Of a stretch of 64,000 nt of DNA, positions 1 to 58,845 are shown one piece after another (positions within the stretch are counted from its first letter, which is position 1; the number at the start of each line of letters is the position of its first letter). Origin of the DNA: Narcine bancroftii (lineage: Eukaryota); the NCBI RefSeq assembly GCF_036971445.1, contig NC_091473.1, positions 207,514,001-207,578,000 of the forward strand. The letters run 5' to 3'. The notes under the pieces are model-generated. The model was not told where the DNA came from. It made no database searches and worked only from the letters and a program-made list of their open reading frames with translations. The position numbers and the translations under genes are program-made.

Positions 1-1519
1 AGGTCTCACAGGATCAGTTTGCCTTTAACTGGAAGGGGCGCCAGTATATCTTCACCCACCTCCCTCAGGGCTATGTACACTCTCCCACTCTTTGCCACAA
101 CCTAATTGCCCGTGATTTGGAGATGGTGCCAGTATCGCCTTCCTTCTCAATTCACCATTATATTGATGATGTGATGATCCAAGGGGCCACGGAAGAGATG
201 GTACAGAAAGCAGAACAAGAGGACGCCTGGTTTACTGATGGTAGCAGCCGGTGGGTGCAAGGAAAGCAGAAGTAGAAGGCAGTGGCTTACCATCCCAGGT
301 CAGGAACTCACTTATTGGAGGAGGGAGATGGTGGCTCCAGTCAGTATGCTGAGTTGAAGGTAGTCACTTTACCACTAGACCCCCATGATCACCCTCTTCG
401 CTTGTTTACTGATTCCTGGGCTGTGGCTAATGGACTAGTGGTATGGATGCCTGATTGGCAAAAGAACAACTGGCTGATACATGACCACCTAGTATGGGGC
501 AAACAGTTGTGGCAGCTGTTGTGGGATGCTTCCCATCATCGTGAGATAACCGTATATCACGTTGATGCCCATACCAATGTGACGACGAACATGGCACAAC
601 ATAATGCAGTAGCAGATCAGCTTGCCACTATCAGCCGCGCCGCTACTGTCCCCCTGGCTCGATGGGCACATGAACAGAGTGGCCATTTGGGGGAGAAGGG
701 ATCAGCTATGTGGGCCCGTACACATGCCTTACCCGTCCATAAGGACGATGTCCGCATGTTTGTGCATACATGCCCAGCATGCCAGCTTGTGAAGTTCCGC
801 ACTGTTCCTCCTGGTCCGCATGGCCGAATAAGACGGGGAGCTCGATCAGCTGCGGTCTGGCAAATTGATTACATAGGCCCTATGCCAGACTGTATGGGTA
901 AACATTACGTCCTAGTAATGGTTGACACTTTTTTGGGCCTGGTTTTTGCTTTTCCCACCAAGACGGCTGACCAAGCTAGCGCCATTCAAGGACTAAACCA
1001 TTTAATTTCTTGTTATGATGTACCAGAGGAAATTCAGTCTAATAATGGCTCGCACTTCTCCGGGAAGGTAATCTGTGATTGGTCAGCTGACAACAGTATC
1101 TTATGGGTCCACCATATTCCTTATTACCCGCAGGCTGCTGGGTTAGTTGAATGAATGAATGGCTTACTGAAGGAAAAAATTCATTTGTTAACACCACTGG
1201 GGACCCTGAAGGGGTGGTGCCATGTGCTGCAGCAGGCAGTCGACAATTTGAATCATCGCCCTTTGAAGGGAGGTACACCTTTTCACCGACTTCTTCACGC
1301 TTCTGAACTACAGCCTATTCCAGAGGAAAACAGTATTTTCCCCCCATTCCCGAGCCAGAGAATGCCAGACAAAAGGTATGGGTGGCACCATCAGGTAGTG
1401 GCCCTCCTGTAAAAGGGGAAATAGTGACACCTGCCCAGGGTAACACTCGGTGGGTAGCTATTGAGGGACAGGATGATTTAGTTTGCTTAAATACTGAACG
1501 CTTACAGCATCGTGAGTGA
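1..1519 (+). pseudogene. pol: Endogenous retrovirus pol (RT core - RNase H - integrase), class III (ERV-L/ERV-S-like), degraded and internally deleted
   Basis: Frame 3 from nt 6 reads QFAFNWKGRQYIFTHLPQGYVHSPTLCHNL...HYIDDVMI (RT), then directly AWFTDGS (RNase H), FTDSWAVANG, HVDAH, integrase HHCC (HEQSGH...CPAC), WQIDYIGP, SNNGSHF and AAGLVE*MNGLLK. Stops at ~273 and 1152, frameshift near 1370, end TGA 1517-1519. Confidence 0.9.
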
Positions 1520-1520
1520 C

Positions 1521-1907
1521 ATATGTCAGGCTTCTTTGTTCCAGGTCCTCCATCTTGTGCTCCTGCTGATCTGGCTTAACCGCTGCTTTGATGCCAGCAA
1601 ATGGATTTGTAATGTCGAGGACGTTCCGAGCGAGTTGCCCGTGGGGGACACGGTCCGATGTATCCACTAATATATCTGATATTGTTAAGCATGTTTCAAA
1701 ATCTGTTTGTGAGCTTCAGTGTCTGGTATTGTGGCCCATAAGGATAGTTTGAGCCTTGATTCATGGTTAAATGGTATATTTAGGGGATTGGACCACAATA
1801 TTCTCCGTTGGTTGCTCGCATTATTGCGTATTTTTGTGCTTATTATAGTTTTAGTTTCTTTTTTTCGTTCCTTCTGTACTCAAATGCTTGTTAGGTCTCA
1901 TAAGTGA
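1521..1907 (+). pseudogene. env: env remnant (signal-peptide-like start joined to C-terminal transmembrane part)
   Basis: Between pol and the PPT: hydrophobic LFQVLHLVLLLIWLNRCFDA, then in ORF 1719-1907 DSWLNGIF followed by membrane-spanning LRWLLALLRIFVLIIVLVSFF. Position and hydropathy fit an env with its middle deleted. Confidence 0.6.
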
Positions 1908-1930
1908 CAGGCTGTGATCAAGGGGTGGAA

Positions 1931-2495
1931 TGTAATGGAGGATTTAGACCAGCTTATGCAAGAATGGATGCAGTTGCATCAGAAGACATAATCCAATTTA
2001 CACCACCACGAGGCCATGAGATGCAGTTGTCTTTTGTTGGTCCCAGACTGTCAGGAGACCTTGAAGATAATTAAATCATTTGTTCGAAGAGATAAGAACT
2101 GATGTAAACTTTTGGGTAATATAAGCCATGGTCCCACTGCTGAAGATTGAGACTCTCCAAGAGGTGGCAACATACTTCAGCAAGAAGAAGAACTTCAAGA
2201 TTCCAAACCAACGTCCCGGTCCGGGGAGGTGGAGAAGCTGCTACCGGCACCCAGACAACCTACTACAAGTGTGCAGTCATCGCCTTGCTTTGGCAGTTAG
2301 GACCAGTCCAGGCATTGATAAGTATAATTGGGAAGGGCTTGCATATTGTAGTGTGAATTCAGCTAGCTATTAGTAATAAAGACTTGTACAAACTGAACTG
2401 CTCTCGGTGTGTGTGTGTCTATTTTCTTTCGGTAGCTCAAACACTGTGACCAATCTAAAACAAACAAAATGAGAGGTATAAGTTTACCCAAGACA
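1931..2495 (+). mobile_element. 3' LTR of the ERV, preceded by polypurine tract AAGGGGTGGAA (1920-1930)
   Basis: Starts TGTAATGG right after the PPT, ends ...CAAGACA; AATAAA at 2375-2380; 3' two thirds match the solo LTR at 5589-6287 in reverse. Confidence 0.9.
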
Positions 2496-3296: not shown

Positions 3297-3545
3297 GATG
3301 AAACTTCGTGTTGGACCTCTTCTCCAGTGTTGACAAACCATTGAACAAATGTAAATACTCAGCTCGACTCCACCCATCTGGAGTGGACTGTGAGTTAGCT
3401 GAAGACACCTTTGTCCCTTTTCCTCTTCAACCCCGAGTCTTCACCCACACTTCACATCCATTCACCTTCAGGTTACCCTGAACTGCTCAAAATCACTGAG
3501 AGGCAGCTCACACAAAGTGGTCATCATCCTCTTCCTTCAGTTGTG
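3297..3545 (-). pseudogene. IgW: Degenerate duplicate of IgW Cw5 exon (psi-Cw5')
   Basis: Nucleotide similarity to 13478-13740 (cttcgtgttggacctcttctccagtgttg vs cttcgtaatggacctcttctccggtgttg; caggttaccctgaa shared). Remnant peptides TTLCELPLSDFEQFRVT* and EYLHLFNGLSTLEKRSNTK align to TILCEVVHGDLEGFRVTW and EYSCVVEDKSLPTPEKRSITK; stops and indels present. Confidence 0.8.
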
Positions 3546-4285
3546 CTGACAGGCAGACTTGCCCAAAGTTCCTGAGATGTTGGAGTCCAAACCTTGATCT
3601 TGCCGTCATTATGTAATCTTTCTTTCGTGGGTGAGACTGTCGTCTACCGGACCAGCGTCTTTTGCTCTGCTCCTGTGACTGACTTGCCAGGCCTATCAGA
3701 GACACTGATGAATTTGGTGAGTGACTGAAGGCGAAAGAGTGCAAAAGGCAGGTGACCTTTACAAAAGGTCATCAGTGAACCTGTTAATCTTCTGTTCCTT
3801 TCCCAGTTTCACCCTCACTTTGACTGCCCACAGCAACTCATATCCTCCTGTTGCTTTCTAGTTTAAAATTTTCTACTGTCCCTTCAAGTTGTGCATCAAA
3901 GCCATTCTCCAGAAGCTGTTGAGCGTAACCAAGCAGAGCAGTGTTGCCTTCCCGTGTCGGGATATTGAAGTGTTCTGGAAGATGTGGTGGAGGCAGATAC
4001 GATTGGGTCTTTTAAGAGACTTTTGGAAAGGTACATGGAGCTTAGAAAAAAGGCCTATGGGTAAGGCTGGTCATTTCTCAGGTAGGGACATTATTGGCAC
4101 AACTTTGCTGTAAGTTTTGTATGTTTTTCTGTGAAATTGTATCAATGAATATATTTGCTTCTGTTCTATGCATTCAGGTTATCAGCTCCCTCACATAAGC
4201 ACAACAATGCCACGTCGATCTTTCAGTGAACTAACTGTGACATAGGCAAAGGTGTTTGAGATTAGGGTGAATCCCAGAACCGTAC

Positions 4286-4603
4286 CTTGCATGTTTTTCA
4301 CCTCCCGGCTGATACTGGTGTTGGAGGGGGGATGAGACACTATACAGCTGAAGACCGAGCCTTTCTTCCACTCATCTGTCCTCACCGTCAGGAAGTGGCT
4401 GGCACTGAAAGTGCCCACCTGCTCCAGAGCAGTCTGTGTAGTGGGGGTGTTGAAGAAGATCAGGGAGCTGTCTTTCTCCCAGGTGACGTTTATGAGGTCC
4501 GGGTAGAATCCAGAGATCACACACTCGAGGGTGGCCGTGATCCTACTCTTGGTGTCGTCATGTGTTGGCGGCAGCGGACGGACCTCAGGCCCTTTGAACT
4601 CGA
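4286..4603 (-). CDS. IgW: IgW constant exon Cw4' (duplicate), open 318-nt exon
   Basis: ttccag acceptor and G|GTACGG donor, phase 1-1. Ig C1-set domain VEFKGPEVRPLPP...TLECVISGFYPDLINVTWEKD...TALEQVGTFS...EWKKGSVFSCIVSHPPS; paralog of 14654-14971. Confidence 0.9.
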
Positions 4604-4691
4604 CTGGAACAGACGAGCAAAGAAAGGAGACGTCAACATTTTTACTCAAGGTCACAGATGTTGTCCATCTAATCACTGATCTTTTGCCCAC

Positions 4692-4992
4692 CTTTGGTAC
4701 TTTGTGTCTGCTGAGACTGGCGAGGATGAAGAAGATCCTTGGGTGGAACAAATGTACACTGCCCCACTGTACCACTCCTCCACACTGGTCTGAAATTGGC
4801 TGATCACTGTGCTTTGTGTCCCTTCCTCTCTCGGTTGTTGGGTCACATTTCCTTTCATTTTCTCCCTTCCGCTCACCTGCCAGTATATTTGGACCTGGCT
4901 CAGATCAGCACCCACAACCAGGCACAGCAGAGTAGCGCTCTTGTTGATCCAAATCTCTTCAGTGGATGGATTTTGTAAAAAGATGGACCATT
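4692..4992 (-). pseudogene. IgW: IgW constant exon Cw3' (duplicate), frameshifted at its 3' end
   Basis: ctgcag acceptor and G|GTGGGC donor; WSIFLQNPSTEEIWINKSATLLC...W...EWYSGAVYIC. Length 301 nt; ACAAAGTACCAAAG vs ACAAAAAGCACCAAAG in the paralog shows a 2-nt deletion. Confidence 0.85.
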
Positions 4993-5588: not shown

Positions 5589-6287
5589 TGTCTTGGGTAA
5601 ATTTATACCTCTCATTTTGTTCGTTTTAGATTGGTCACAGTGTTTGAGCTACCAAAAGAAAATAGACACACACACCGAGAGCAGTTCAGTTTATATAAAT
5701 GTTTATTACAAAATCAAAAGCTGATTTCACACTACAATATGCAAGCCCCTCCCAACTATACTTAGCAACGCTTGGACTGGACCCAATTGCCAAAGCGAGG
5801 CAATGACTGCACACTTGTAGTAGGTTGTCAGGGCGCCGGTAGCAGCTTCTCCACCTCCCTCGACCGGGACGTTGGCTGGACTCTAGAAGTTCTTCTTGCT
5901 GAGAGATGTTGCCAAACTTCAGCAGTGGGACCATGGCTTATATTACCCAAAAACTGCTTACCCAAGCACCTATTCCCAGCACAGCAAGAAAGATAAGCGA
6001 GCAAGCTAGCATGCTAGGCTTCTATCGAATAACATAATTTTCAGCTTATCACTTTGAATACAATGGTTTATTTTGCATCAAGGCTAGGCCTCTGACAGTC
6101 TGTGACAAAAAGAAGCAGGAAGATTAAATGTTCTTGGTACACAGATGTCCTTTCATCAGATAACTTCATCTCTGGCCTCTCGGTGGATTTTAGCTTATGT
6201 CTGCTGATTCTAAAAACAAGCAGGTTCTCAGCCTTGCAGAAGCAAAGGCTGCAAAATTAAAAAACACAGTTAGAATCTTCCATTACA
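5589..6287 (-). mobile_element. Solo LTR of the same ERV family, 5-bp TSD GCATT
   Basis: TG...CA termini; GCATT at 5584-5588 and 6288-6292; reverse match to LTR 1931-2495; AATAAA at 5702-5707 and TAATATAAG at 5937-5945 on the minus strand. Confidence 0.92.
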
Positions 6288-7900: not shown

Positions 7901-9824
7901 AAGGACAGCACGGTTAGCATAACACTCTGACAGCACCAGCTCCACATTTTTCCCTCAATTCAAAATACATACTGAGGATTGTAGGTCAATTGGGTGTAGT
8001 TGGGCTGCACAGGCTCATGGGCCAAAAGGACCTGTTACCGTGATGTATGTTTAAATTTAAATGTGCCACTAGATGGTTATTCATCATGAACTTTTGTACT
8101 GATTTGTGCCACAAATTCACTGAGTTCTTTTTTTAAGACTACTGGCATTCAGATAAGTGCCCTCACACTCATTGTCCTTTCAGGCTCTCGTAATCTTTGT
8201 CTCATTTATTTGATTTTTTCTGAACTCCTCTCTTACTTTTTATTACCTTTGCTTTGGTCTCTCTCCATTTCTTCCCTCTGTTTCTGTGCTAGGATTCCTA
8301 TCTCCCTCCCTCTACATTATCTTAAACCTCCCCAACAGAAGGAGCAAATAATCCCTCAGGACATTGATCAGTCAGTCTACATCAACTGCCATTCCATACT
8401 TGCAGGCATCGTAAATTTCGTTGACTATTTGAAATCTATTGTTGATGACCATCTAGCATGGAAGACAGATTAGTTGCATTGGCAGGGCAGAATTGTGCCA
8501 GAGGTCTCCACCTGGTTATTATTTCTGCAGAGAGAAATTTTCCCCCCCATTTCACTCCTGATTCATTGGATGAGGAGAGACGGATTGATAAGTTATTGTA
8601 TGTGTTCTGCATTGTCAATTCTCCACCAAAGCTCTACCATCACTTCAGATATCCCTCAGCTCATGGCTTTCTGCATCCACACACACACATTCACTCTGGT
8701 CCACATTGACTAAAATTGCTCTTCAAGACTGGTGGGGAAAGCATGTTAAGATTGAAACCTGCAATGATATCAGGGGACAACATCTTTGGCTGCAGGTGAG
8801 CTTTTGTTCAGTGGAGAGGAGCTGCTTCTCAGAACCCTTTTTCAGCACTAAATTAGCGCAGTTCTCTGTTTCTTTCCATGTCAACCTAAACAACTCAAAG
8901 CCAATTTCCTTCAAAGCTTATTGTAGAAGTAGATGACTGTTACCGACTATAATTAAAGTTTGATCAATGATTTGAGAATTTGGGTTCATTCAGCAGTGCC
9001 CTGATATGAAGAATTGCAAGGTGTTCAGCCCTGTCCTGCAGTCGTGACACCGAGACACAGTCACAGTGTCCAGTGCCCCAGGTAAGGTCACCATCAGAAA
9101 GCCTGGCAGTGTTGGGACTATTCCCCTTATTGTTAGAGAATGCTGATCCTATTCCAATGGCTAATTATATTCACCTTTTGGCAGAATTTAAACAAACACT
9201 TTGCCAATTTCTGCACTTGACTGAATTCACTGATTGGAATGAAAATGACACAGTTGTTGCTTTTGCTGCCAAGTGTTTCAACCAAACGCACAGGAGGAGA
9301 GAGAGCACCAGTTGGATCCCTGTGTTCAGTCTCACCAACCTGCCGCAGGTTCAGGTTTGTGAAAGGGTTCGCCACCCTCCCCCATCCACCCGCATTATCT
9401 CCTGCCCGCCAGGCTCTGGATGAGAAGGAGGGCTTCCAGTTCCCAACAGGAGTCTGACCAGAAAAATGATCTGGTCCTGCAGTGGGTCAGTGGGCTGAGT
9501 GACAGTGAGCCAACATTGTTCACAAATAAATGGGCAAGGAATAGGGGGAGTGTGTTGCTGGAAACCCTTTATATCCTTTCATCCATGTCATGAATATTCC
9601 CATGAATGGTTACGGCAGTAACTGAGGTCATTACAGGACACTGCACATCATCATCTCCTGCTGGGTTCAGTTTCCACCCATCGTGTCTTCAGTCTTTTTC
9701 CTGTCCTTCTGCCAGTCTCAGACTCAGGTCTCTCATGAGAAACATTTACAAATACCTCATAGAGCTCCTATAAATAAATTCCTGTCTCAAATACTTTAAG
9801 TGCGTCTTTAATAAGTTCAGTCAC

Positions 9825-11753: not shown

Positions 11754-11759
11754 TTTATT
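11754..11759 (-). terminator. Polyadenylation signal of the long secreted IgW form
   Basis: AATAAA on the minus strand ~240 nt after the tailpiece stop codon. Confidence 0.7.
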
Positions 11760-11997: not shown

Positions 11998-12383
11998 TTA
12001 TGCACAAGAGGTAAAACTATCAGTGAGAACAAGTGAGACGTTGACCAAGGTGGGTTTGCTGTGAGATTTATTGATGCTTCTGAACAGATTAGTTGTGAGT
12101 GACTCATGTCCCATCAAGCAGGAGAAAGTGGTGCCACGATCCCACTCCTCTGGAGAAACCTTCAACTGACTGGTCATCGTGTTCCAGCCACTTCTGGGGT
12201 CCTCAGTCACTGGATGGTTGACAAAGCCAGTCTTCAGAAGGATGTCGTTGGCCATCCAGGCCACCTAGATGTCTGCAGGAGAGAACTTCTTGACTAGGCA
12301 CATCAGGGTTGTAGACTGATCGCCCTCTAACTCTTCTGATGAAGGGGGGAGGAGGTAGATGTGAGGAGAAGTCACAACTCCAC
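11998..12383 (-). pseudogene. IgW: IgW last constant exon Cw6 with secretory tailpiece; in-frame TAG at 12265-12267
   Basis: cccag acceptor; [18 protein letters not shown]...[24 protein letters not shown]...EWDRGTTFSCLMGHESL...KSHSKPTLVNVSLVLTDSFTSCA*. Tail has NVS sequon and penultimate Cys typical of Ig secretory tailpieces. Confidence 0.92.
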
Positions 12384-12944
12384 CTGGGAACAGAACGAAC
12401 CTCAGTTAGGTTGCATCATTCAATAATTCTGTGCTGAACCCACACATTGTGCTTTCAAACCAACATGGGCAACTTCTACATCTTGAGGGATTTCACTTTA
12501 CCTGACACTGGAGCCTTTTCCCTTTCTACTCATTGTTGGGATGTGCAGGGTGGAAGCCTTGACTCGGACACATTTTAAAGCTTCCAGAGAGGTTTGTCTG
12601 TTCCGTTTAATCAGTGGAAGCCACTGATCACAGAGACTCCACAGAAAGTGGGTCAGACCATGGACTTGACTCATCCTGTGCTGTTTGGTCCATCTCCCCC
12701 TCTGCTTCAATGATCTGCTGAACTTCAGTCTGTGCCTCAGCCTCCCTGCCCTTCCACCCACTGCCTTGACTCAGTCTCTCCCTCAGGGTTTGAAAGCTGC
12801 AGATCCTTCTCCCTCGACATCATCACAGGAACTCACCCCGCAGCTGAGTTTGGTTTTGGATGAGGCTGCTGTGGTGATTTGTGGTCTTACTGGTTTTCTC
12901 TGGAGGCTTCAGTCTTCCTTTGCTCCTTAATATTCTCTGACCAA

Positions 12945-13330
12945 CATGAGAAGACCTTCTCCAAGGCAAAGAAGAATGTGGGGAGTCTCATGGAAACTAT
13001 AACATTCTGAACTGATTGGACAGAATCGATACTGGAAGAATGTTCCTGATGGCGGCAGAATCCAGGAACAAGGGTGACAGGCTGAAGATGGTGTGAGAGG
13101 AGGAATGATAGAAAGGAGAATGGTGAACCTGGGGAATTCTCTGCCACAAAGAGGAGTTGAAGCCCCGTGAGTAAATATGTTCAAAGATGAGCTGGATATT
13201 GTTCCAAGGGTAAAAGTTCAAGGGGCATGGAGAGAAGGCAGGAATAGGGGGCGCAATTTGAATGATCTGCTGTGATCATATTGAATGGTTAAGCAGCAAT
13301 GAAAGGTTGAATGGCCTACTTCTACTCTCT
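12945..13330 (+). mobile_element. CR1 LINE 3' fragment
   Basis: CR1-type 3' end (agaatccaggaacaagggtgacagg...aatggcctacttct), compare 22800-23120. Confidence 0.65.
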
Positions 13331-13477
13331 AATTTTCCCTGAGTCCACCACACTGCTGAATGGTGACATATGCTTTGCTTCTGTACATTACACAATGTAA
13401 ATGACAAAACCTCAATATTTATTATCATTCCTCTACTTGCTTAGATCAGAATCACACCAAGCTCTCTCTTCACGTAC

Positions 13478-13786
13478 CTGTGGCCTTCGTAATGGACCTC
13501 TTCTCCGGTGTTGGCAAACTCTTGTCCTCCACCACGCACGAGTACTCAGTTCCTATCTCCCACTCCGCAGCGGGGACCGTCAGTCTGCTGATAATCATGT
13601 CTTCACCTCCGTTCCTATTTGGACCCTGAGTTCTCACCCCATCTTTTCTCTCACTTCCATCCACTTGCCAGGTTACCCTGAATCCCTCTAAATCACCATG
13701 GACCACCTCACATAGAATGGTCGCCGTCCTGTTCATCCAGATCTCTTCGAAGGAAGGTTTTCTTAAAGATTTTGAGGGGCTGGTAT
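13478..13786 (-). CDS. IgW: IgW constant exon Cw5 (309 nt, open)
   Basis: gttcag acceptor and G|GTACGT donor; KPSFEEIWMNRTATILCEVVHGDLEGFRVTWQVDG...EWEIGTEYSCVVEDKSLPTP; homologous to IgNAR C4 / IgW C5. Confidence 0.92.
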
Positions 13787-14653
13787 CTGAACAGTCATCA
13801 GGGAGAAACGTCATAATTATTATTTCACCATTCTCTAAAGGATGGGGCATCACTGGTGAGACCAACATTTCATACTCATCTCCAGCAAATAATTTGTTGG
13901 TCGCATCAGATCAGTCGAGACTTATCTACGTTGATGGAGGAATGCGGTTTCCCAAATTGAGCAGACAGGGTAAACCCTCCTCAGGAATATCAATGAACAA
14001 GTTTGTCTCTGATGTAAGTTGGACAGTTTCATGGACACATAAGCTGTTCCCAGCCACTTATTAAAACAAAAACAGAAAATTCCAAACATTTCAGGCTGCA
14101 CCTGTGCAGAGGGAAGCAGAGCTAATATTTTAGTTCAGAAATATTCCAGCAATTTTCCTTGACATTTTAAAAAATCAAGCATCAGAAATATTTGATCTTT
14201 ATTACAACTGTTAAAATGCATTTGGCCCCCATGAAGTGTAACTGAAATCTCTTGCTGCTTTGCCAGAATGTTTTGTGTTCAAGCTGTCCTGCAGAGGCTT
14301 CCACACATTGCCCAGGCTAACTCTTCCCATGCTGGAGCAGAGAGAGTGCTGCCCTGCTGCAGATTCAGTCATGGCTGAGGCCATGACCAGAGGCCCAGAA
14401 TACATTCAAAGACAGAAGGAGAGACCATTTGGAAGAAGAATATCCGGGATCTCCAGGGCATCTGGCCAGTGAAATGGTTTGTATTGTGCTCAAGTTATGA
14501 AATCAATTTCAGGGATACAATTATTTCTCTGGCCAAGATTCTGGAGGATCCGTTCAGTCATAAAACTATAAGAGGGCTGCACCATGTTTCTGTCTGGCAC
14601 AATTCATAGCATAAAGCAAACAATGTCAACACTGGAGTGGGTCGGGACCTTTC

Positions 14654-14971
14654 CTTAGACATTCCACTCTTCCTTTGTGATGCTGGTGTTGGAGGAGGGA
14701 TGAGACACCATGCAGTTGAAGACTATGCCTGTCTTCCACTCCTGTGAACTCACAGCCAGGAAGTGGCTGGCAATGAAAGTCCCATCCTGCTCCAGAGCAG
14801 TCCGTGTCGAGGTGGTGTGGGAGGAGATTAGGGAGTGATCTTTCTTCCAGGTGACATCAATGTGGTCTGGGTAGAATCCCGAGACCACACACTCGAGGGT
14901 AGCCATGATCCTTTGCTTGGACTCATGGTATGGTGGAGGCAGCAGTCTGACCGCAGGAGGTTTCATCTCAA
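14654..14971 (-). CDS. IgW: IgW constant exon Cw4; last codon is TAA and the splice donor is GA instead of GT
   Basis: ttccag acceptor; VEMKPPAVRLLPP...TLECVVSGFYPDHIDVTWKKD...TALEQDGTF...EWKTGIVFNCMVSHP; ends GTC TAA G|GAAAGG where the paralog has ATG CAA G|GTACGG. Confidence 0.9.
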
Positions 14972-15056: not shown

Positions 15057-15356
15057 CTTTGGTGCTTTTTGTCCATGCTGACACTGGTGAGGATAAATGA
15101 TCTTGGGCAGAACACATGTACTCAATGCCGCTGGACCACTCCTCCACGCTGGTCTGGAGTCGGCTGATTATTGTGTTTTGGAACCCTTTCCTTCTGGGCT
15201 GTTGGGTCTCAGCTCCATCACTTCTATCCTCCCCGTTCATCTCCCAGGAGATATGGACTTTCTTCGGATCAGCAGAGAGGACTGTGCACACCAGAGCAGC
15301 TGTTTTGTTGATCCACATCTCTTTAATGGAGGGATTTTGAATTGAGACAAACAATT
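15057..15356 (-). CDS. IgW: IgW constant exon Cw3 (300 nt, open)
   Basis: ccacag acceptor and G|GTGGGC donor; SIQNPSIKEMWINKTAALVC...VHISWEMNG...SVEEWSSGIEYMCSA; 85-nt intron to Cw4. Confidence 0.92.
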
Positions 15357-16466
15357 CTGTGGATCAGAAACAGGAGATGTCAGAATTGTAGTGGAAGCTT
15401 TTCTCTTTGTGATGGAAAGTCAGAGCAGATCCAAGTGCATTGTGGCAGTGAGCTGGAAACAGGATAACAGAAACTCGCAAGGGTGGAAAGGTGTGCTGCA
15501 AATGTTGGCGGGGAAAATAAACTCAGTATAAAGGACCTGCCAAATGGGTTTAATCGCCTTCCCCACAACTGTGACCACGAGGTTCAGAGCAGGGACTCGA
15601 TGGGAGGTGAGAGGCTGAACATTTTGATGCTGCAAAACCATTCACAGGTTTTTGGGAAGCCAGAAGAGAGGGAAGTCTGCATAAGGGAGGGAGGGAGAAA
15701 ACGGGAAATTATAGACCAGTCAGCCTGACGTCAGTGGTGGGGAAGATATTGGAATCTATCATAAAAGGAGTAATAGCAGAACACTTAGGCAGAAATAATA
15801 GTATAAGGGCTAGTCAGCATGGATTCCTTAAGGGTAAGTCATGCTTGACTAACCTGGAATTTTTCAAGGATGTGACAAAGAGGGTGGACTTGGGAGAGCC
15901 AGTGGATGTGGTGTATTTGGACTTCCAGAAGGCCTTTGATAAGGTACCCCACGGGAGACTAGTGGGCAAGATCAGGGAGCATGGTATTGGAGGTAAGGTG
16001 CTGACATGGATAGGAAATTGGTTAAGAAATATGAAACAAAGGTTTTTTTTTAAATTTTTCACACCATAAATCACAATAGCCATGATATACACTTTTTCTT
16101 TTCCACACATTTACAGTGACTTTTTCTCCCTCCCCCCTCCCTCCTCCCAAGCCACCCCCCACCCCCCCCCCTCTCATCCATTTTAGGTATACAATCTAGG
16201 TTGCATTAATTCAGTTAGACAATGTTGTCATTCAACAAAAATACACCAGAAATTCTACTGAGTCCATTCTTTTCTTTTCTTCTCCTTCCATCAACTTAGG
16301 TAATGTTTGTTCCCGGTAGGTTTTCGCTATTGTATTTAATGTAAGGCTCCCATACTTGTTCGAATATTTCAATATTATTTCTTAAACTATATGTTATTTT
16401 TTCTAATGGAATACATTTATTCATTTCTATATACCATTGTTGTATTTTCAAATTATCTTCCAATTT

Positions 16467-19400
16467 TCAGGTTGACATAATACATTTTTTTGCTACGGCT
16501 AGGGCTATCTTGACAAATCTTTTTTGTGCATCTTCCAAGTCAATTCCAAATTCTTTATTTTTTATGTTACTTAGGAGAAAGATCTCTGGATTCTTTGGTA
16601 TATTGTTTTCTGTTATTTTATTTAATATCTGATTGAGATCATCCCAAAATTTTTCTACTCTCTCACATGTCCAGATTGCATGAATTGTTGTTCCCCTTTC
16701 TTTTTTACATCGAAAACATCTATCAGATACTGTTGGGTCCCATTTATTTAACTTTTGTGGTGTAATGTATAGTCTGTGTAACCAATTATATTGTATCATA
16801 CGCAGCCTCGTATTTATTGTATTTCTCATCGTTCCAGAGCATAACTTCTCCCATGTTTCCTTTTTTATCTTTATATTTAAATCTTGTTCCCATTTTTGTT
16901 TAGTTTTACCATTTGTTTCCTCATTTTCCTTTTCTTGCAGTTTAATATACATATTTTTTATAAATCTTTTGATTAACATTGTATCTGTAATCACATATTC
17001 AAGGTTACTTCCCTCTGGTAAACTCAGGTTGCTTCCTAATTTATCTTTCAAGTAGGATCTCAGTTGGTAATATGCCAGCGCTGTATCTCCAGTTATATTG
17101 TACTTATCTCTCATTTGTTCAAAGGATACGAATCTACTTCCTGAAAAACAATTTTCTATTCTTTTAATCCCTTTTTTTTCCCATTTTCTAAAGGCAAGGT
17201 TGTCTATTGTAAAAGGGAGTAGCTTATTTTGCGTCAATATTAGTTTTGGTATTTGGTAATTTATTTTATTTCTTTCTACATGAATCTTCTTCCATATATT
17301 GAGGAGATGGTGTAATACTGGAGAAGTTCTATGTTGTACCAATTTTTCGTCCCATTTATATAATATGTGTTCAGGTATCTTTTCCCCTATTTTATCTAAT
17401 TCTAGTCTCGTCCAGTCTGGTTTTTCCCTTGTTTGATAAAAATCTGATAGGTACCTTAATTGTGCGGCTCTATAATAATTTTTGAAGTTTGGCAATTGTA
17501 AGCCTCCTTGTTTATACCATTCTGTTAATTTATCTAGTGCTATCCTCGGTTTCCCCCCTCTCCATAAAAATCTCCTTATTATTTTCTTTAACTCTTTGAA
17601 GAATTTTTCTGTCAGTTGTATTGGCAATGCCTGAAATAAGTATAGTATCCTTGGAAAAATGTTCATTTTAATACAGTTTATCCTTCCTATCAGTGTTAGT
17701 GGTAGCTCTTTCCAATGCTCTAAATCGTCCTGTAATTTTTTCATTAGTGGATTGTAATTGAGTTTATATAATTGGCCTAGATTTTTGTTTATTTGCACAC
17801 CTAGGTATCTTATTGCCTGCGTTTGCCATCTGAATGGGGATTCCTCCTTAAATTTTGAGAAATCCGCGTTATTCATAGGCATTGCTTCACTTTTATTTAC
17901 GTTTATCTTGTATCCCGACACTTCTCCATATTCCTTCAATTTCTTATATAGTTCTTTTATTGATAGTTCTGGTTCTGTTAAGTACACTATCACATCATCC
18001 GCAAACAGACTGATTTTATATTCCCTGTCTTTTATTTTTATTCCTTTTATATTATTATCTATTCTTATCGATTCTGCTAGTGGTTCTATAGCTAGCGCAA
18101 ACAATAATGGTGATAGTGGGCATCCCTGCCGCGTTGACCTGCTTAAGTTAAATTGCTTTGATACATGTCCATTTACTGTCACTTTCGCTAACGGTCCCTT
18201 ATATAATGCTTTAATCCAATTAATATACTTCTCTGGTAAACTGAATTTTTGCAATACTTTGAACAAGTAATTCCATTCTACTCTGTCGAAGGCCTTCTCT
18301 GCGTCTAAAGCAACTGCTACTGCCGGTGCTTTATTTCCTTCTACTGCATGAATTGAGTTAATAAATTTACAAATATTGTCTGTTGTGCGTCTTTTTTTGA
18401 TAAATCCAGTTTGGTCTAAATTTACCATTTTTGGTACCTGTTCTGCTAATCTGTTCGCTAATAGTTTAGCTATTATCTTATAATCTGTGTTTAGCAGAGA
18501 TATTGGTCTATATGACGCTGGTGAGAGTGGATCTTTCCCTTGTTTTAGTATCACTGTAATTATTGCTGTTTTACATGAATCTGGTAAGTTTTGTGTCTCA
18601 TCAATCTGGTTGATTACATCCAGGAGGGGCGGTATTATTAGGTCTTTAAATGTTTTGTAGAATTCTATTGGGAGTCCATCCTCTCCTGGTGTCTTATTAT
18701 TTGGTAAATTTTTTATTATCTCTTGTATTTCTACTGTTCCAAATGGTTCTGTTAATTTATTTTGTTCCTCTATTTGTAGTTTTGGTAGTTCAATTTTAGT
18801 CAAAAATTTATCTATTTTCCCTTCTTTCCCTTCGTTTTCGGTTCGGTATAATTGTTCATAGAATTCTCTGAAGTTTTCCTTAATTTCTTTTGGATTATAT
18901 GTAATTTGTTTGTCTTTTTTCCTTGTTGCCAATACCATTTTCTTAGTTTGCTCTGTCTTAAGCTGCCATGCTAGGATTTTGTGTGTTTTTTCCCCTAGTT
19001 CATAATATTTCTGTTTTGTCTTCATTATATTCTTCTCCACCTTATATGTTTGTAATGTTTCATATTTTATTTTTTTATCCGCCAATTCTCTTCTTTTGGT
19101 TGTATCTTCCTTTATTGCTAATTTTTTTTCTATGTTTATTATTTCCCTTTCCAACTGCTCTGTTTCCTGATTATAGTCCTTCTTCATCTTGGTTGCATAA
19201 CTTATTATTTGCCCTCTAATGAATGCTTTCATTGCGTCCCATAGTATAAACTTATCTTCCACTGATTCCGTATTTACTTCAAAGTACATTTTTAATTGTT
19301 TTTCAATAAATTCTCTAAAATCCTGTCTTTTAAGTAGCATGGGGTTTAATCTCCATCTATACATTCTTGGAGGGATGTCCTCTAGCTCTATTGCCAATAA

Positions 19401-20093
19401 CAGGGGTGAGTGGTCCGATAATAGTCTCGCTTTATATTCCGTTTTCCTAACTCTCCCTTGAATGTGGGCTGATAACAGGAATAGGTCTATCCTTGAGTAT
19501 GTTTTATGTCTAGTCGAGTAGTATGAGTATTCCTTTTCTTTTGGGTTTTGTTTCCTCCATATGTCCACAAGTTTCATTTCTTGCATTGATTTAATTATAA
19601 ATTTGGTTACTTTGTTCTTCCTGTTAATTTTTTTCCCCGTTTTATCCATATTTGGATCCAAATTCAGATTGAAATCCCCTCCTATTAGTATGTTCCCTTG
19701 CGTATTATCTACCTTCAAAAAGATATCTTGCATAAACTTTTGATCTTCTTCGTTAGGTGAATATATATTAAGTAGATTCCAAAGCTCTGAATATATCTGA
19801 CATTTTATCATAACATATCTCCCTGCTGGATCTATTATTTCCTCTTCTATTTTAAATGGCACATTTTTGCTAATTAATATAGCCACTCCTCTTGCTTTTG
19901 AATTATACGATGCTGCTGTTACATGTCCTACCCAATCTCTCTTTAATTTCTTGTGCTCCAATTCAGTTAAGTGTGTTTCTTGGACAAATGCTATATCTAT
20001 TTTTTCCTTTTTCAGTAAATTTAGTAGTTTCTTCCTTTTAATTTGGTTATGTATTCCATTAATATTTAGAGTCATATAGTTCAGCGTAGCCAT
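16467..20093 (-). CDS. L1 ORF2p (APE endonuclease, RT, C-terminal Cys-rich domain); premature TGA removes the last 57 aa
   Basis: VQETH, GGDFN, SDH (EN); [29 protein letters not shown] (RT); CFRC...H...C. Copy B continues WKLEDN...GTNIT* where copy A has TGA. Confidence 0.93.
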   Translation of the reverse strand: MATLNYMTLNINGIHNQIKRKKLLNLLKKEKIDIAFVQETHLTELEHKKLKRDWVGHVTAASYNSKARGVAILISKNVPFKIEEEIIDPAGRYVMIKCQIYSELWNLLNIYSPNEEDQKFMQDIFLKVDNTQGNILIGGDFNLNLDPNMDKTGKKINRKNKVTKFIIKSMQEMKLVDIWRKQNPKEKEYSYYSTRHKTYSRIDLFLLSAHIQGRVRKTEYKARLLSDHSPLLLAIELEDIPPRMYRWRLNPMLLKRQDFREFIEKQLKMYFEVNTESVEDKFILWDAMKAFIRGQIISYATKMKKDYNQETEQLEREIINIEKKLAIKEDTTKRRELADKKIKYETLQTYKVEKNIMKTKQKYYELGEKTHKILAWQLKTEQTKKMVLATRKKDKQITYNPKEIKENFREFYEQLYRTENEGKEGKIDKFLTKIELPKLQIEEQNKLTEPFGTVEIQEIIKNLPNNKTPGEDGLPIEFYKTFKDLIIPPLLDVINQIDETQNLPDSCKTAIITVILKQGKDPLSPASYRPISLLNTDYKIIAKLLANRLAEQVPKMVNLDQTGFIKKRRTTDNICKFINSIHAVEGNKAPAVAVALDAEKAFDRVEWNYLFKVLQKFSLPEKYINWIKALYKGPLAKVTVNGHVSKQFNLSRSTRQGCPLSPLLFALAIEPLAESIRIDNNIKGIKIKDREYKISLFADDVIVYLTEPELSIKELYKKLKEYGEVSGYKINVNKSEAMPMNNADFSKFKEESPFRWQTQAIRYLGVQINKNLGQLYKLNYNPLMKKLQDDLEHWKELPLTLIGRINCIKMNIFPRILYLFQALPIQLTEKFFKELKKIIRRFLWRGGKPRIALDKLTEWYKQGGLQLPNFKNYYRAAQLRYLSDFYQTREKPDWTRLELDKIGEKIPEHILYKWDEKLVQHRTSPVLHHLLNIWKKIHVERNKINYQIPKLILTQNKLLPFTIDNLAFRKWEKKGIKRIENCFSGSRFVSFEQMRDKYNITGDTALAYYQLRSYLKDKLGSNLSLPEGSNLEYVITDTMLIKRFIKNMYIKLQEKENEETNGKTKQKWEQDLNIKIKKETWEKLCSGTMRNTINTRLRMIQYNWLHRLYITPQKLNKWDPTVSDRCFRCKKERGTTIHAIWTCERVEKFWDDLNQILNKITENNIPKNPEIFLLSNIKNKEFGIDLEDAQKRFVKIALAVAKKCIMST

Positions 20094-20692
20094 TTTATAT
20101 TTTGTTTATCTTCTCTTTCCGTTTTTCCATCATTAGCTTTCCTCCTTTTCCATTTCTGTTTTCTTATTTTCAACTCTTTACCAGACAACATTCCTACAAC
20201 ATCCAACATTTTCCTTATTCTCCTATTTCTATCTTCTTTATCCCCAATCTCCCCTTCCCCTCCTGAGTTGCCCTTTATCCCTTGTCGGACAACCACATCT
20301 CCCCTCTCCATTTGGATTTGCGAATCCACTCGCAAGCGTCAACTGATTTTGCAGTGACCGCTCTTTTCCCCCACCCAGCCCCCCCCAGAAAAGATTTCGC
20401 TTTTTATATGTCACAAAGGTCACTCTTTTAATTCCCTCCTTATTCTCTCTATTCCATTACCTTCCCTTATTAATTCTTGTCTATACTCTCTATGTTTTCC
20501 TCTAATTACAGATACTTTCACATATGCCCATTGTCTCTATTCACTCTTATACCTCTTTACCCGCATACATATCAATTGTGGTCATTTTTACCCTCCTTAC
20601 CCGTCTTCATCCCTCAGTCTATTTTTGTCTTTACCCACATACATATCAATCGTGATGATTTTTGCTCTCATTACCCGTCTTCATCCCTCAGT

Positions 20693-21913
20693 CTATTTTT
20701 GTAATTGTTCTGCAAATTTTCGTGCTTCTTCTGGATCCGAGAATAGTCTGTTTTGTTGTCCTGGAATAAATATTTTCAATACCGCAGGATGCTTCAGTGT
20801 AAATTTATATCCTTTCTTCCATAAAATCGCTTTTGCTGCATTGAACTCTTTTCTCTTCTTTAGGAGTTCAAAGCTTATATCTGGATAAATGAAGATTTTT
20901 TGCCCTTTATACTCCAGTGGTTTGTTGCCCTCTCTTACTTTTTCCATTGTCTTCTCCAGTACCTTTTCTCTTGTAGTATATCTTAGGAATTTTACTACAA
21001 TAGATCTTGGTTTTTGTTGTGGTTGTGGTTTAGGGGCCAATGCTCTATGTGCCCTTTCTATTTCCATTTCTTGCTGTAGTTCTGGACATCCTAGGGCCTT
21101 AGGGATCCATTCTTTTATAAACTCCCTCATATTCTTGCCTTCTACATCTTCCTTAAGGCCCACTATCTTTATGTTATTTCTTCTGTTATAATTTTCCATT
21201 ATATCTATTTTTTGGGCTAGTAATTCTTGTGTCTCTTTAGTTTTTTTATTAGATTCCTCCAATTTCTTTTTTAAGTCTTCTACCTCCATTTCTGCTGCTA
21301 TTGCCCGTTCTTCCATCTTGTCCATTTTTTTCCCCATTTCTGTTAAGGTCATATCCATTTTATTTATTTTCTTTTCTGTGTTGTTTATTCTTCTTCTTAT
21401 ATCATTGAATTCCTGTGTTTGCCATTCTTTAAATGACTCCATGTATCCTCTAACAAGAGCAAGTATATCCTTTACCTTGCCTTTCCCTTTATCTATTTCA
21501 CTGTATTCTTCCTCTTCTTCTTCCTCTAGGTTGACCATCTGTTGTTTCTTTGCTGCCCTTTCCTCCTCTTCTTTCTTGTTTCCATTGTCTTCTGTCGTCT
21601 CTTCTTGCTGCAGGTGTTCTGCAGCTGTCGTTGCCGGATGTGGAGATCGACTCCCCAGCTGGTCCCCCCTCCCATCGGTGTGTTTTTTTTCATGCGCATC
21701 GTGCATGCGCGAGGAGTCGCGCATGCGCGGTTGCACACTTTTACTCGGCTCTGTGAGCCATTGTTGTAGTTCTCTTTCTACCGACCTGAGGTAGTGGGGT
21801 CTTCTCTCCACAGCGGGCCTCTTCGGACAGGTAAGGCCTTCACCTTTTTCCTCCGTTGTCTTCTCTTCCTCTCTTCTTTCCGTTGATTTTGATTTTTCTC
21901 CTTTTCTCTCCAT
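20693..21913 (-). CDS. L1 ORF1p (coiled coil, RRM, CTD); true start codon uncertain
   Basis: ENYNRRNNIKIVGLKE, IERAHR, PRSIVVKFLRY, IFIYPDIS motifs. Confidence 0.9.
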   Translation of the reverse strand: MERKGEKSKSTERREEEKTTEEKGEGLTCPKRPAVERRPHYLRSVERELQQWLTEPSKSVQPRMRDSSRMHDAHEKKHTDGRGDQLGSRSPHPATTAAEHLQQEETTEDNGNKKEEEERAAKKQQMVNLEEEEEEEYSEIDKGKGKVKDILALVRGYMESFKEWQTQEFNDIRRRINNTEKKINKMDMTLTEMGKKMDKMEERAIAAEMEVEDLKKKLEESNKKTKETQELLAQKIDIMENYNRRNNIKIVGLKEDVEGKNMREFIKEWIPKALGCPELQQEMEIERAHRALAPKPQPQQKPRSIVVKFLRYTTREKVLEKTMEKVREGNKPLEYKGQKIFIYPDISFELLKKRKEFNAAKAILWKKGYKFTLKHPAVLKIFIPGQQNRLFSDPEEARKFAEQLQK

Positions 21914-35990: not shown

Positions 35991-36118
35991 TCACTTTATT
36001 TGACACTTTCCTTGTGAACAATGATACGGTCGGGTGGTATCATCAGAGAATGTCACATTGACATTAGTCTGCTGGAAGAATATCGGCACACACGTCGAAC
36101 AGCTGGGACAGTTTCCAT
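35991..36118 (-). CDS. IgW: IgW short-form Cys-rich secretory tail exon, intact
   Basis: ccattttcag acceptor, phase 1; GNCPSCSTCVPIFFQQTNVNVTFSDDTTRPYHCSQGKCQIK*; AATAAA (35995-36000) overlaps the last codons. Resembles, from recall, the Cys-rich tail of skate IgX/IgW short form; not in the ORF track because it is short. Confidence 0.85.
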
Positions 36119-37016
36119 CTGAAAATGGAAGATGCATAGATTTAACCATTAGATATTCTCTCCTCTACTGGCTGCACTGGGAAAGGAAGTACCTCCACAC
36201 AGTCCCGACCTCTATTCTCTGCATTCACCATCTTTTAGGGATGAGATAATGTAAACCAATGATGACCTGTTGTCCCAAGTTCTAATCCCAGTGTTTCTGA
36301 GGGGTTGGCCAACGGAATAATGATCCATCTTTGTGAGTGGATGACCTGCTGGGGAGATTCCTGGAATACTGTGGAGATAGACTGTTGAGATTCATTCACT
36401 CGGCTGGAGCTATTTTTCCAGAAACTGAGACTGCGAAGTGAAAAGTGAAGGTGGAGATTTTCTTCACATGTCTATCGTTTGGGAGACATCTTGCTTATGA
36501 CAGTTTACCATATGACAGTTTACAGCACGGAAACAGGCCATATCGGCCCTTCGAGTCTGTGCCAGTTCACATGAACAACTCCACTAATTTTCCCCTCCAA
36601 CCCCCTCATATCCATGTACACATCCAATCTTGTCTTAAATGACAGAAAGGACCCTGCCGCAACTATCTCTTCTGGAAGATCATTCCATTCTGCCACCACT
36701 CTCTGAGTGAAGAAGCATCCTCTAACATTTCTCCTAAAGTTTTGCCCCCTTACCTTGAACTCATGCCCTCTTGTTCCAACCTCCCCTGCCCTCAGGGGAA
36801 AGAGTCTACTCACATCTAGTCTATCTATTCCCTTCATAGTTTTGAATACCTCTATCATAACCCCCTTCAACCATCTATATTCCGAGGAGTCACGTGATGG
36901 AGTAGTGGCCGGACGGTGAACTCCAGCCCTCTCCAGAAAAGTCGGGAAAAACAAGAGAAAATACAAAGGCACAGAAATACAAGTTAAAGAAAAGTGAGTA
37001 TAAAGGTGGAAAGAAG

Positions 37017-38207: not shown

Positions 38208-38806
38208 ACTGAGGGATGAAGACGGGTAATGAGAGTAAAAATGATCACGATTGATATGTATGTGGGTAAAGACAAAAATAGACTGAGGGATGAAGACGGG
38301 TAATGAGGGTAAAAATGACCACGATTGATATGTATGCGGGTAAAGAGGTATAAGAGTGAATAGAGACAATGGGCATACGTGAAAGTATCTGTAATTAGAG
38401 GAAAACATAGATAGTATAGACAAGAATTAATAAGGGAAGGTAATGGAATAGAGAGAATAAGGAGGGAATTAAAAGAGTGACCTTTGTGACATATGAAAAG
38501 TGAAATCTTTTCTGGGGGGGGCTGGGTGGGGGAAAAGAGCGGTCACTGCAAAATCAGTTGACGCTTGCGAGTGGATTCGCAAATCCAAATGGAGAGGGGA
38601 GATGTGGTTGTCCGACAAGGGATAAAGGACAACTCAGGAGGGGAAGGGGAGATTGGGGATAAAGAAGATAGAAATAGGAGAATAAGGAAAATGTTGGATG
38701 TTGTAGGAATGTTGTCTGGTAAAGAGTTGAAAATAAGAAAACAGAAATGGAAAAGGAGGAAAGGTAATGATGGAAAAACGGAAAGAGAAGATAAACAAAA
38801 TATAAA

Positions 38807-58200: not shown

Positions 58201-58845
58201 TTAATCTTGGGATTGTTACAGGCCCAGAGGACCCCAAAACCTCGCAGCAATAGGAAATCACCAAGACAAATGGATACTTAAACAAAGATCTTTTTAAATT
58301 AAAAAAAAATAGGATCAGACTTTAACTTATCAAACTTTGCTTGATGTCCCATTTCCCTTTCACTCCACACAGTAACTACAAGAATTATGTGGGACTAAGT
58401 ATTTCACTTGTGCTGTACAACAGATTGGATTGAAATTAGTGACCCCTGCAATCTCTCACTCTTGGCATTTTCAGTTTCTGAAATGGACCATTGCAGATTT
58501 TCTAACATCCTTTGCCAGATTTTTACACCCTCACTTAACCCACCTCTATCCTTTTTGTCTTCAGCATTGACTTTCGATCCGATCATCAAGCAACTGTGCC
58601 TTCAGAACCTTTGCCCAAGCATTGACTATATATATATTAGCAGGTTGAAGGCTCAGCACTCTTCCTGTGGCACCTCACTCAGTACATTTTTCCAATCAAA
58701 AAAGACCCAAGAATGTTGACTCTCTGCTACCCAGCCCTTCTCTCCATGTCAAGATGTTCCCTCCTGATCCCTGAGCTTTATTTTTCTGAAAAGGACTTTG
58801 AGGGCTATTCCAGAAAAATGAAACTCAGGGCTCAGGAGGTAACTG

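What the first reader, a model, noticed from the sequence alone, without database searches (positions are those of the whole stretch)
3297..4992. Second Cw3-Cw4-Cw5 block lying downstream of the IgW tailpiece and poly(A) signal
Seen: three exons paralogous to 15356-13478 in the same order and strand, with a matching short Cw3-Cw4 intron (88 vs 85 nt) and the same GTGGGCAA donor, ~7 kb past the tailpiece exon. No V/J/Cw1/Cw2 lies between the blocks. Decay is uneven: Cw4' open with good splice sites, Cw3' with one 2-nt deletion, Cw5' heavily decayed. Established: IgW clusters vary in C-exon number and membrane forms with four C domains are known. Inference: an alternative Cw3'-Cw4' cassette, perhaps for membrane forms, that stayed under selection much longer than Cw5', or else the stump of a decapitated neighbouring cluster.
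Basis: partly seen in the sequence, partly recalled or inferred. Interest (0 to 1): 0.7.

Follow-up and report, generated by a model that had tools for sequence, protein, structure and literature searches.

The report
Membrane-only IgW exons in rays
In this electric ray, IgW antibody genes carry an extra pair of constant-domain exons behind the end of the secreted antibody, and RNA splices that pair onto the membrane anchor, so it likely lengthens only the B-cell receptor form; the copy in this window lies in a dead gene.

Summary
The Cw3'-Cw4' pair lies between the tailpiece exon Cw6 and the TM exons in 8 of 8 fully spanned IgW clusters of this ray. It is in frame in 9 of 10 copies; only the window's copy is frameshifted, and its whole cluster is dead (V-Cw2 deleted, stops in Cw4 and Cw6). 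Contigs of four runs from one study show Cw3'>Cw4', Cw4'>TM1 and TM1>TM2 splices (4 of 4 runs) and one Cw4>Cw3' junction. The likely product is a six-domain membrane IgW, V-C1-C2-C3-C4-C3'-C4'-TM; no Cw2>Cw3' join was listed. The pair shows purifying selection (dN/dS 0.38), while Cw5' and a duplicated secretory exon decayed. Its orthologues in skate, sawfish and manta gene models form one clade (99/96); three shark species show none. The nearest published layout is coelacanth IgW1 (review passage only). This scan already noted the layout in a skate genome (e1-10274416); the splice junctions, tree and duplication limits are added here. New variant of a known kind.

The parts
4692..4992 (-). Cw3' exon of the downstream (membrane-side) cassette; this copy has a private 2-nt deletion near its 3' end (between 4709 and 4708)
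   Evidence: 301 nt against 303 in six sister copies measured; C1-set
4604..4691 (-). 88-nt Cw3'-Cw4' intron; the equivalent intron is spliced out in RNA of sister clusters
   Evidence: joint 8726-8815 on L051 in 4 of 4 runs
4286..4603 (-). Cw4' exon, open, with intact acceptor and donor; in sister clusters spliced to TM1
   Evidence: loose end at the Cw4' donor equals the start of TM1
3303..3599 (-). pseudo-Cw5': decayed copy of Cw5, splice signals lost, lesions shared with other clusters
   Evidence: z about 19; alignment of five copies
8857..9582 (-). relic of the duplicated Cw2-Cw3 intron (part behind the short-form secretory exon), showing a DNA-level duplication
   Evidence: score 590, 40 shuffles mean 244, maximum 283
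11998..12383 (-). Cw6 with secretory tailpiece; premature TAG at 12267-12265 in this copy
11754..11759 (-). poly(A) signal of the long secreted form
   Evidence: seen in sequence
13478..13798 (-). upstream Cw5 exon; the acceptor AG of the intact cluster reads TG here
14654..14971 (-). upstream Cw4 exon; TAA at 14657-14655 and donor lost in this copy. In intact clusters this donor splices to Cw5, Cw6 or Cw3'
15057..15356 (-). upstream Cw3 exon
35991..36118 (-). secretory exon of the short (two-domain) IgW form, separated from Cw3 by repeat insertions
58337..58443 (-). junction of the 12.4-kb deletion that removed leader, V, J, Cw1 and Cw2 from this cluster
   Evidence: collinearity with the intact neighbour jumps from G000:C11:207687884 to 207700320; no Cw2 match here among 9 in the genome

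Best explanation
The block is a duplicated Cw3'-Cw4' exon pair lying between the secretory tailpiece exon and the TM exons of ray IgW genes; it is spliced to TM1 and likely gives the B-cell receptor form two extra constant domains that secreted IgW of this species lacks. Shown: the exon order, intact frames in sister clusters, and the splices Cw3'>Cw4', Cw4'>TM1, TM1>TM2 and (one contig) Cw4>Cw3'. Inferred: when a B cell reads past the Cw6 poly(A) site, the Cw4 donor skips Cw5-Cw6 and takes the Cw3' acceptor, giving V-C1-C2-C3-C4-C3'-C4'-TM1-TM2, a six-domain membrane chain. Secreted chains end at the short secretory exon or at Cw6 and cannot include the pair. Inferred origin: in an ancestor of living batoids, DNA from just behind Cw2 to the end of Cw5 was duplicated behind Cw6. 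The copied secretory exon and Cw5' decayed, no Cw6' remains, and only the route to TM survived. Predicted effect, untested: a longer receptor stalk whose membrane-proximal domains evolve apart from the antibody's effector domains. The copy in this window is a passenger in a V-less pseudogene cluster.
For: Layout: 10 downstream-type blocks, 10 upstream-type blocks, 10 Cw6 and 10 TM1 matches. The order Cw6 > pair > TM1 holds in 8 of 8 clusters spanned by chromosome-scale contigs; 10 of 10 pairs have a TM1 5-25 kb downstream on the same strand. Frames and GT/AG sites are intact in 9 of 10. RNA (four runs, one study): the 88-nt intron is skipped in 4 of 4 runs; the loose end at the Cw4' donor equals the first 15 letters of TM1 in 4 of 4; the TM1>TM2 joint is in 4 of 4; the loose end at the Cw3' acceptor equals the last letters of upstream Cw4 in 1 contig of 1 run. 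A spliced contig with 13+7 differences matches the contig-C1 copies exactly, so both subfamilies are spliced. RefSeq models XP_069798624.1 and XP_069798647.1 have the same Cw4>Cw3' join. Selection: dN 0.057, dS 0.150, ratio 0.38 (bootstrap 0.20-0.75) over 204 codons between two subfamilies. Other rays: skate XP_078251664.1 and sawfish P0002 run Cw6 > pair(s) > TM. In Mobula birostris the pair is in 10 of 11 TM isoforms and 0 of 3 secreted isoforms of one protein cluster. The pairs form a clade (99/96), and a species-specific origin in Narcine is rejected (AU p 0.017). A relic secretory exon and intron homology lie upstream of Cw3'.
Against: The Cw4>Cw3' join rests on one contig in one run plus automated gene models. 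The loose-end tables were cut (485 and 75 rows not shown), so Cw2>Cw3', Cw4>TM1 and Cw2>TM1 are not excluded. No single record spans V to TM. The runs are contigs of unknown tissue, from one study, flagged 'RNA? (a guess)'. dN/dS intervals of the single exons include 1 (0.14-1.24 and 0.17-1.06), and my NG86 code has no transition correction. The cassette is not universal or exclusive: Mobula model P0065 skips it, Mobula P0005 ends in a non-cassette pair before TM, sawfish has cassette-type pairs also upstream of Cw5 (P0002, P0011), and skate P0018 places one first. Evidence from other species is gene models, not genomes I read. The AU group was named after the tree was seen. No protein evidence.
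Confidence: 0.82

Rival explanations
1. The pair is an alternative rather than an addition: the main membrane form is V-C1-C2-C3'-C4'-TM (four domains, as in sharks), and Cw4>Cw3' is minor.
For: Published membrane IgW forms have two or four constant domains (PMC4279169 and PMC5192425, passages). The duplicated intron homology starts just behind Cw2, so Cw3' kept the acceptor context that once answered a Cw2 donor. Loose-end tables were cut.
Against: The only upstream partner listed for the Cw3' acceptor is Cw4. Listed partners of the Cw2 donor are Cw3 and the short secretory exon. Narcine and Mobula models join Cw4 to Cw3'.
Confidence: 0.12
2. The pair is tolerated baggage: an old duplicate that must stay in frame only because it sits on the splice path to TM, with no function of its own.
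For: In-frame retention and dN/dS below 1 would also follow from the need to fold. Some Mobula models bypass it. C3-C4 copy number varies from one to seven among elasmobranch models.
Against: Loss of a splice site would remove the pair at no cost, as it did for Cw5', yet it is kept in four batoid orders. It is more alike across orders than the upstream pair in 6 of 6 comparisons (67-78% against 60-73%; not independent).
Confidence: 0.25
3. The block is the dead stump of a decapitated neighbouring cluster, with no present use.
For: This genome has decapitated clusters: the window's own, and one on C1 at 240.66 Mb that keeps a decayed V, the pair and TM but no Cw1-Cw6. A tandem cluster fusion could have produced the layout originally.
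Against: No Cw1, Cw2 or Cw6 relic flanks the pair. Each cluster has a single TM1, which lies behind the pair. The pair is intact in 9 of 10 copies and spliced to upstream Cw4 and to TM1.
Confidence: 0.03

Closest known systems
Coelacanth IgW1 locus (as summarised in review PMC5192425, citing Saha et al. 2014; review passage read, primary paper not held)
   Same: Duplicated Cw3-Cw4-Cw5 exons lie between the exons of the secreted form and two TM exons.
   Different: Four tandem triplets in a large multi-V locus, against one pair plus a dead Cw5' in each single-V cluster here. Coelacanth and ray domain numbers need not be orthologous (not tested). The ray block groups with batoid sequences only, so it is probably an independent event.
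Shark IgW clusters with 6-8 constant exons and membrane forms of 2 or 4 domains (reviews PMC5192425, PMC4279169, PMC6795676, passages; Zhang et al. 2013 not held)
   Same: Same gene family; C3-C4 duplication; membrane forms skip C5-C6 by alternative splicing.
   Different: In shark models the extra C3-C4 pairs lie upstream of C5, and the pair before TM is the same sequence as the pair before C5 (Mustelus, Scyliorhinus torazame, Chiloscyllium punctatum). Here the pair lies behind the poly(A) site and yields a predicted six-domain membrane chain, a form not listed in those reviews.
RefSeq models XP_069798624.1 and XP_069798647.1 (Narcine bancroftii, 'immunoglobulin mu heavy chain-like')
   Same: Already join Cw4 to Cw3'-Cw4' in sister clusters.
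   Different: They miss TM1 and read TM2 in another frame, so they do not show a membrane chain, and they are not named IgW.
Membrane-only extracellular segments of mammalian Ig, such as the long membrane form of human IgE (recalled, from no call)
   Same: Extracellular sequence present only in the receptor form, encoded 3' of the secretory end.
   Different: A short spacer from an extended membrane exon, not two whole C1-set domains on their own exons.

Membership tests
IgW heavy-chain cluster gene of cartilaginous fish | single V-(D)-J followed by Cw1-Cw6 in one minilocus | tested here: met
   Met in the four sister clusters read out (leader, V, J, C1-C6); D segments not located. Not met in the window's own cluster, which lacks V-Cw2.
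IgW heavy-chain cluster gene of cartilaginous fish | constant domains are C1-set and closest to named IgW | tested here: met
   Pfam C1-set for 4 of 4 exons tested; Cw4' is 66% identical to nurse shark secreted IgW; IgNAR hits are lower, 43-45% with the skate cassette as query.
IgW heavy-chain cluster gene of cartilaginous fish | short secretory exon behind Cw2, tailpiece on Cw6, two TM exons | tested here: met
   splices Cw2>short secretory exon, Cw5>Cw6 and TM1>TM2
Functional IgW gene (the window's own cluster) | rearrangeable V and open constant exons | tested here: not met
   V-J-Cw1-Cw2 deleted; stop and lost donor in Cw4; stop in Cw6; frameshift in Cw3'
Coelacanth IgW1-type layout (constant exons between secretory end and TM) | duplicated C3-C4-C5 exons 3' of the secreted form and 5' of TM | tested here: met
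   8 of 8 spanned clusters; only C3' and C4' are alive
Coelacanth IgW1-type layout (constant exons between secretory end and TM) | common descent with the coelacanth block | not tested
   No coelacanth sequence was in hand. The ray pairs form a batoid-only clade apart from all shark pairs, which argues for a separate origin.
Membrane-only constant cassette | spliced to TM exons | tested here: met
   Cw4'>TM1 loose end in 4 of 4 runs
Membrane-only constant cassette | absent from secreted transcripts | tested here: inconclusive
   Follows from its place behind the poly(A) site, and no secretory exon was found behind Cw4'. Read-through of the Cw4' donor gives a 28-35 residue tail with no conserved poly(A) position. 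No full-length reads. In sawfish, cassette-type pairs also occur before Cw5.
Membrane-only constant cassette | protein present on B-cell surface | not testable with these tools
   needs surface staining or proteomics

The most novel reading that the evidence does not exclude
Since their common ancestor, rays and skates have built the IgW B-cell receptor with its own dedicated, more slowly evolving constant domains. One gene cluster would thus make receptor and antibody with different C-terminal constant regions by splicing alone, and in this ray the cassette would be the main route to the membrane. The coelacanth reached the same layout separately, pointing to a recurring advantage of a long, specialised IgD/W receptor stalk.
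Probability: 0.45. Interest if true: 0.7.

Novelty: new variant of a known kind. Interest (0 to 1): 0.52.

Why it matters
In the usual picture, membrane and secreted antibody share their constant domains and differ at the tail. Here two whole domains appear reserved for the receptor and have been kept across the four batoid orders. The function of IgW/IgD is an open question (PMC4279169 and PMC6795676, passages). Membrane-only domains give a unique epitope to stain or sort IgW B cells apart from cells that merely bind secreted IgW, and a clean deletion test of what receptor length does. It also corrects the automated annotation, which misses TM1 in this species.

Tried and rejected
No run on record as RNA was listed; the four best holders were guesses, and I treat them as containing RNA only because they show GT-AG joints. 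Depth was not used to rank exons. Lack of cover or of listed joints at pseudo-Cw5' and lack of listed Cw2>Cw3', Cw4>TM1 or Cw2>TM1 joins are not evidence, as tables were cut. Relics of Cw1, Cw2 or Cw6 around the pair: none clearly above shuffles in four intervals each side (the one marginal score, Cw1 behind the C11 208.23-Mb copy, 174 against a shuffle maximum of 169-175, is taken as chance). My RSS pattern scan found nothing in either cluster, including the intact one, so it says nothing. IgNAR identity of the block: rejected. Pseudo-exon as a decayed Cw3 rather than Cw5: rejected. Conserved special cysteines or sequons in the cassette: only the four canonical cysteines; 3-5 sequons against 3-4 upstream; nothing diagnostic. 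No dogfish secreted IgW was returned for comparison with its TM form. PDB search gave only generic Ig heavy chains and UrIg2. The careful tree of all 123 pairs did not finish; a quick tree was used and a careful tree of 32 chosen rows. No structure or complex prediction was run, as it would not decide the question. Primary papers (Zhang 2013, Saha 2014, Ohta and Flajnik 2006) were not held.

Full report
Observation. Cw3' is 4992-4692, the intron is 88 nt, and Cw4' is 4603-4286. The pair matches the upstream Cw3-Cw4 at 74% over 702 nt, and both exons are C1-set domains. The decayed exon at about 3599-3303 is a Cw5 copy: score 500 against shuffles of mean 138 and maximum 204, while Cw3 and Cw3' reach 163 and 202. 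The block starts 7.0 kb behind the Cw6 stop, past AATAAA at 11759.

Where the window lies. It is G000:C11:207514001-207578000. A RefSeq protein of Narcine bancroftii is 100% identical to a sister Cw4' on a contig of the same length, so this is an electric ray.

The window's own cluster is dead. Against the intact neighbour, 12.4 kb holding leader, V, J, Cw1 and Cw2 is deleted at about 58440. None of the 9 Cw2 matches in the genome lies here. Upstream Cw4 ends in TAA with a lost donor, the Cw5 acceptor is changed, and Cw6 has a TAG. The 2-nt deletion in Cw3' is private to this copy.

The layout is general in this genome. The DNA search scored 20 of 20 candidates: 10 downstream-type blocks (90-100% alike) and 10 upstream-type blocks (75-76%). 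A protein search scored 118 candidates and returned the same 20 plus two distant hits. There are 10 Cw6 and 10 TM1 matches. In 8 of 8 clusters on chromosome-scale contigs the order is Cw6, then the pair 5.6-17 kb on, then TM1 5.3-24.6 kb further. The window's TM1 is intact, 20 kb beyond the low end. Two Cw6 copies lie too near contig starts to see their downstream part. Two pair-plus-TM units lack a Cw6 match: one near 130 kb on small contig C138 (its upstream part probably beyond the contig end, not checked) and one orphan on C1 with a decayed V. Frames and splice dinucleotides are intact in 9 of 10 pairs (7 measured, 3 read; one has an in-frame 3-nt loss).

RNA. No run on record as RNA was listed; four contig sets from one study hold 75-77% of the words. 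Laid on an intact cluster, they skip the 88-nt intron and the 606-nt TM1-TM2 intron with GT-AG ends in 4 of 4 runs. At the Cw4' donor, all four show a 15-letter loose end that is the start of TM1. At the Cw3' acceptor, one contig of run X1 shows 26 letters that are the end of upstream Cw4, in frame and as in the RefSeq model. A spliced contig with 13+7 differences equals the C1 subfamily, so both subfamilies are spliced. On the upstream region the listed joints are Cw1>Cw2, Cw2>short secretory exon, Cw2>Cw3, Cw3>Cw4, Cw4>Cw5, Cw5>Cw6 and Cw4>Cw6. No Cw2>Cw3', Cw4>TM1 or Cw2>TM1 was listed, but 485 and 75 loose-end rows were cut. No record spans a whole transcript, and contig depth cannot rank isoforms.

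Selection. Between a C11 and a C1 cluster, Cw3'+Cw4' have dN 0.057, dS 0.150, ratio 0.38 (1000 bootstraps, 0.20-0.75). The upstream pair has 0.47 (0.27-0.86), and the intron behind Cw4' has diverged 0.21. Single-exon intervals include 1. Five pseudo-Cw5' copies aligned share a 1-nt, a 3-nt and a 6-nt gap and have lost the pyrimidine tract and the donor, so Cw5' died before the clusters multiplied.

Origin. Intron homology runs collinearly for about 2.5 kb upstream of Cw3' in a C1 cluster. It includes a decayed copy of the short-form secretory exon (score 300, shuffle maximum 199) and reaches to just behind Cw2, but not into Cw2. In the window, 8857-9582 is such a relic. The Cw4-Cw5 intron is weakly homologous; nothing is homologous behind Cw5, and no Cw6 relic was found. 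The duplicated unit ran from behind Cw2 to at least Cw5. Of its parts, the secretory exon and Cw5' died, and the two exons on the path to TM survived. Whether it arose by internal duplication or by fusion of two tandem clusters cannot be told.

Other species (gene models only). Skate XP_078251664.1 and sawfish P0002 run Cw6, pair(s), TM. In one Mobula birostris protein cluster the pair is in 10 of 11 TM isoforms and 0 of 3 secreted ones; Mobula hypostoma has it before TM as well. I extracted 123 distinct C3-C4 pairs, leaving out four IgNAR proteins and pairs under 190 residues. The quick tree groups 18 cassette-type rows at SH-aLRT 97. A careful tree of 32 chosen rows groups the skate, electric ray, sawfish and manta pairs at 99/96, apart from all shark pairs. 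Holding the Narcine upstream and downstream pairs together is rejected (AU p 0.017; group named after the tree was seen). Cassette pairs are more alike across orders than upstream pairs in 6 of 6 comparisons. In 3 of 3 shark species with both isoforms in hand, the pair before TM is the pair before Cw5; unannotated downstream exons in sharks are not excluded. Against exclusivity: Mobula P0065 skips the pair, P0005 lacks it, sawfish has cassette-type pairs before Cw5, and skate P0018 places one first.

Mechanism. Shown: exon order and four splice junctions. Inferred: read-through of the Cw6 poly(A) site lets the Cw4 donor skip Cw5-Cw6 and join Cw3', giving V-C1-C2-C3-C4-C3'-C4'-TM. This is the usual secreted-versus-membrane choice (established knowledge) with two domains added on the membrane side. 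Predicted, untested: a longer receptor whose membrane-proximal domains are free of effector-function pressures.

Comparison with what is known. Reviews give IgW clusters 6-8 constant exons and membrane forms with 2 and 4 domains (PMC5192425, PMC4279169, PMC6795676; passages). PMC5192425 describes coelacanth IgW1 with four Cw3-Cw4-Cw5 repeats between the secreted exons and TM, the nearest precedent. I also read passages of PMC12227049, PMC13007054 and bioRxiv 2022.06.22.497154 and 2022.05.20.492783; none of those passages describes this layout in rays. Seven searches listed no paper on it. The primary papers of Zhang 2013, Saha 2014 and Ohta and Flajnik 2006 were not held, and Rumfelt 2004, Smith 2012 and Anderson 1999 were seen only as references; no supplements were read, so an earlier mention is possible. 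This scan noted the same layout in a skate genome (e1-10274416); I found that note after my own analysis, and it is not independent proof.

Verdict. A real, transcribed, conserved feature of ray IgW genes, seen here in a pseudogene copy. New variant of a known kind; interest 0.52.

Noticed in passing
L052:1499-3950 (intact cluster; window equivalent 12383-14654): Cw4 is spliced directly to Cw6, skipping Cw5, in 4 of 4 runs. This would give a five-domain secreted IgW; bamboo shark models P0007 and P0012 show the same skip.
   Followed up: partly
L032:6023 (G000:C11:207680023; a similar sequence lies near window 11305): One contig of run X4 joins the Cw4 donor to a cryptic AG acceptor 1.6 kb behind the Cw6 stop; a cryptic terminal exon or a splicing intermediate.
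   Followed up: partly
L051:1585-2338 (TM1-TM2): RefSeq models XP_069798624.1 and XP_069798647.1 skip TM1 and read TM2 in another frame, whereas RNA joins Cw4'>TM1>TM2. The spliced tail reads KVQQ; unspliced TM1 would end KVTK.
   Followed up: yes
L057-L062 (G000:C1:240653686-240678453): Orphan cluster: decayed leader and V, no Cw1-Cw6 in the 60 kb read, but an open Cw3'-Cw4' pair and TM1.
   Followed up: partly
window 1-2495 and 5589-5952: LTR-retroelement or provirus-like insertion in the Cw4'-TM1 intron. The LTR at 2110-2495 has a partner about 3.6-4.0 kb beyond the window's low end (89% alike) and an inverted 85% copy at 5589-5952. A reverse-transcriptase-like motif near 150-180 was read by eye, not tested by tool.
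   Followed up: no
window 16046-22047 and 36883-42849: Two 6-kb LINE-like copies, 97.7% identical and in opposite orientation, flank the short secretory exon; each holds a 149-nt near-palindrome (20554-20702, 38198-38346). The LINE label is from reading the sequence, not from a family scan.
   Followed up: no
G000:C11:207.61-208.01 Mb, 215.6 Mb, C138, C529: At least five clusters are identical in protein over all constant exons compared, with near-equal spacings: very recent amplification or homogenisation; the small contigs may be assembly duplicates.
   Followed up: no
proteins P0001-P0003, P0004, P0074, P0091: C3-C4 pairs are repeated up to seven times in sawfish, six in manta and four in bamboo and epaulette shark models, annotated 'titin-like' or 'uncharacterized', beyond the 6-8 constant exons given in reviews.
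   Followed up: partly
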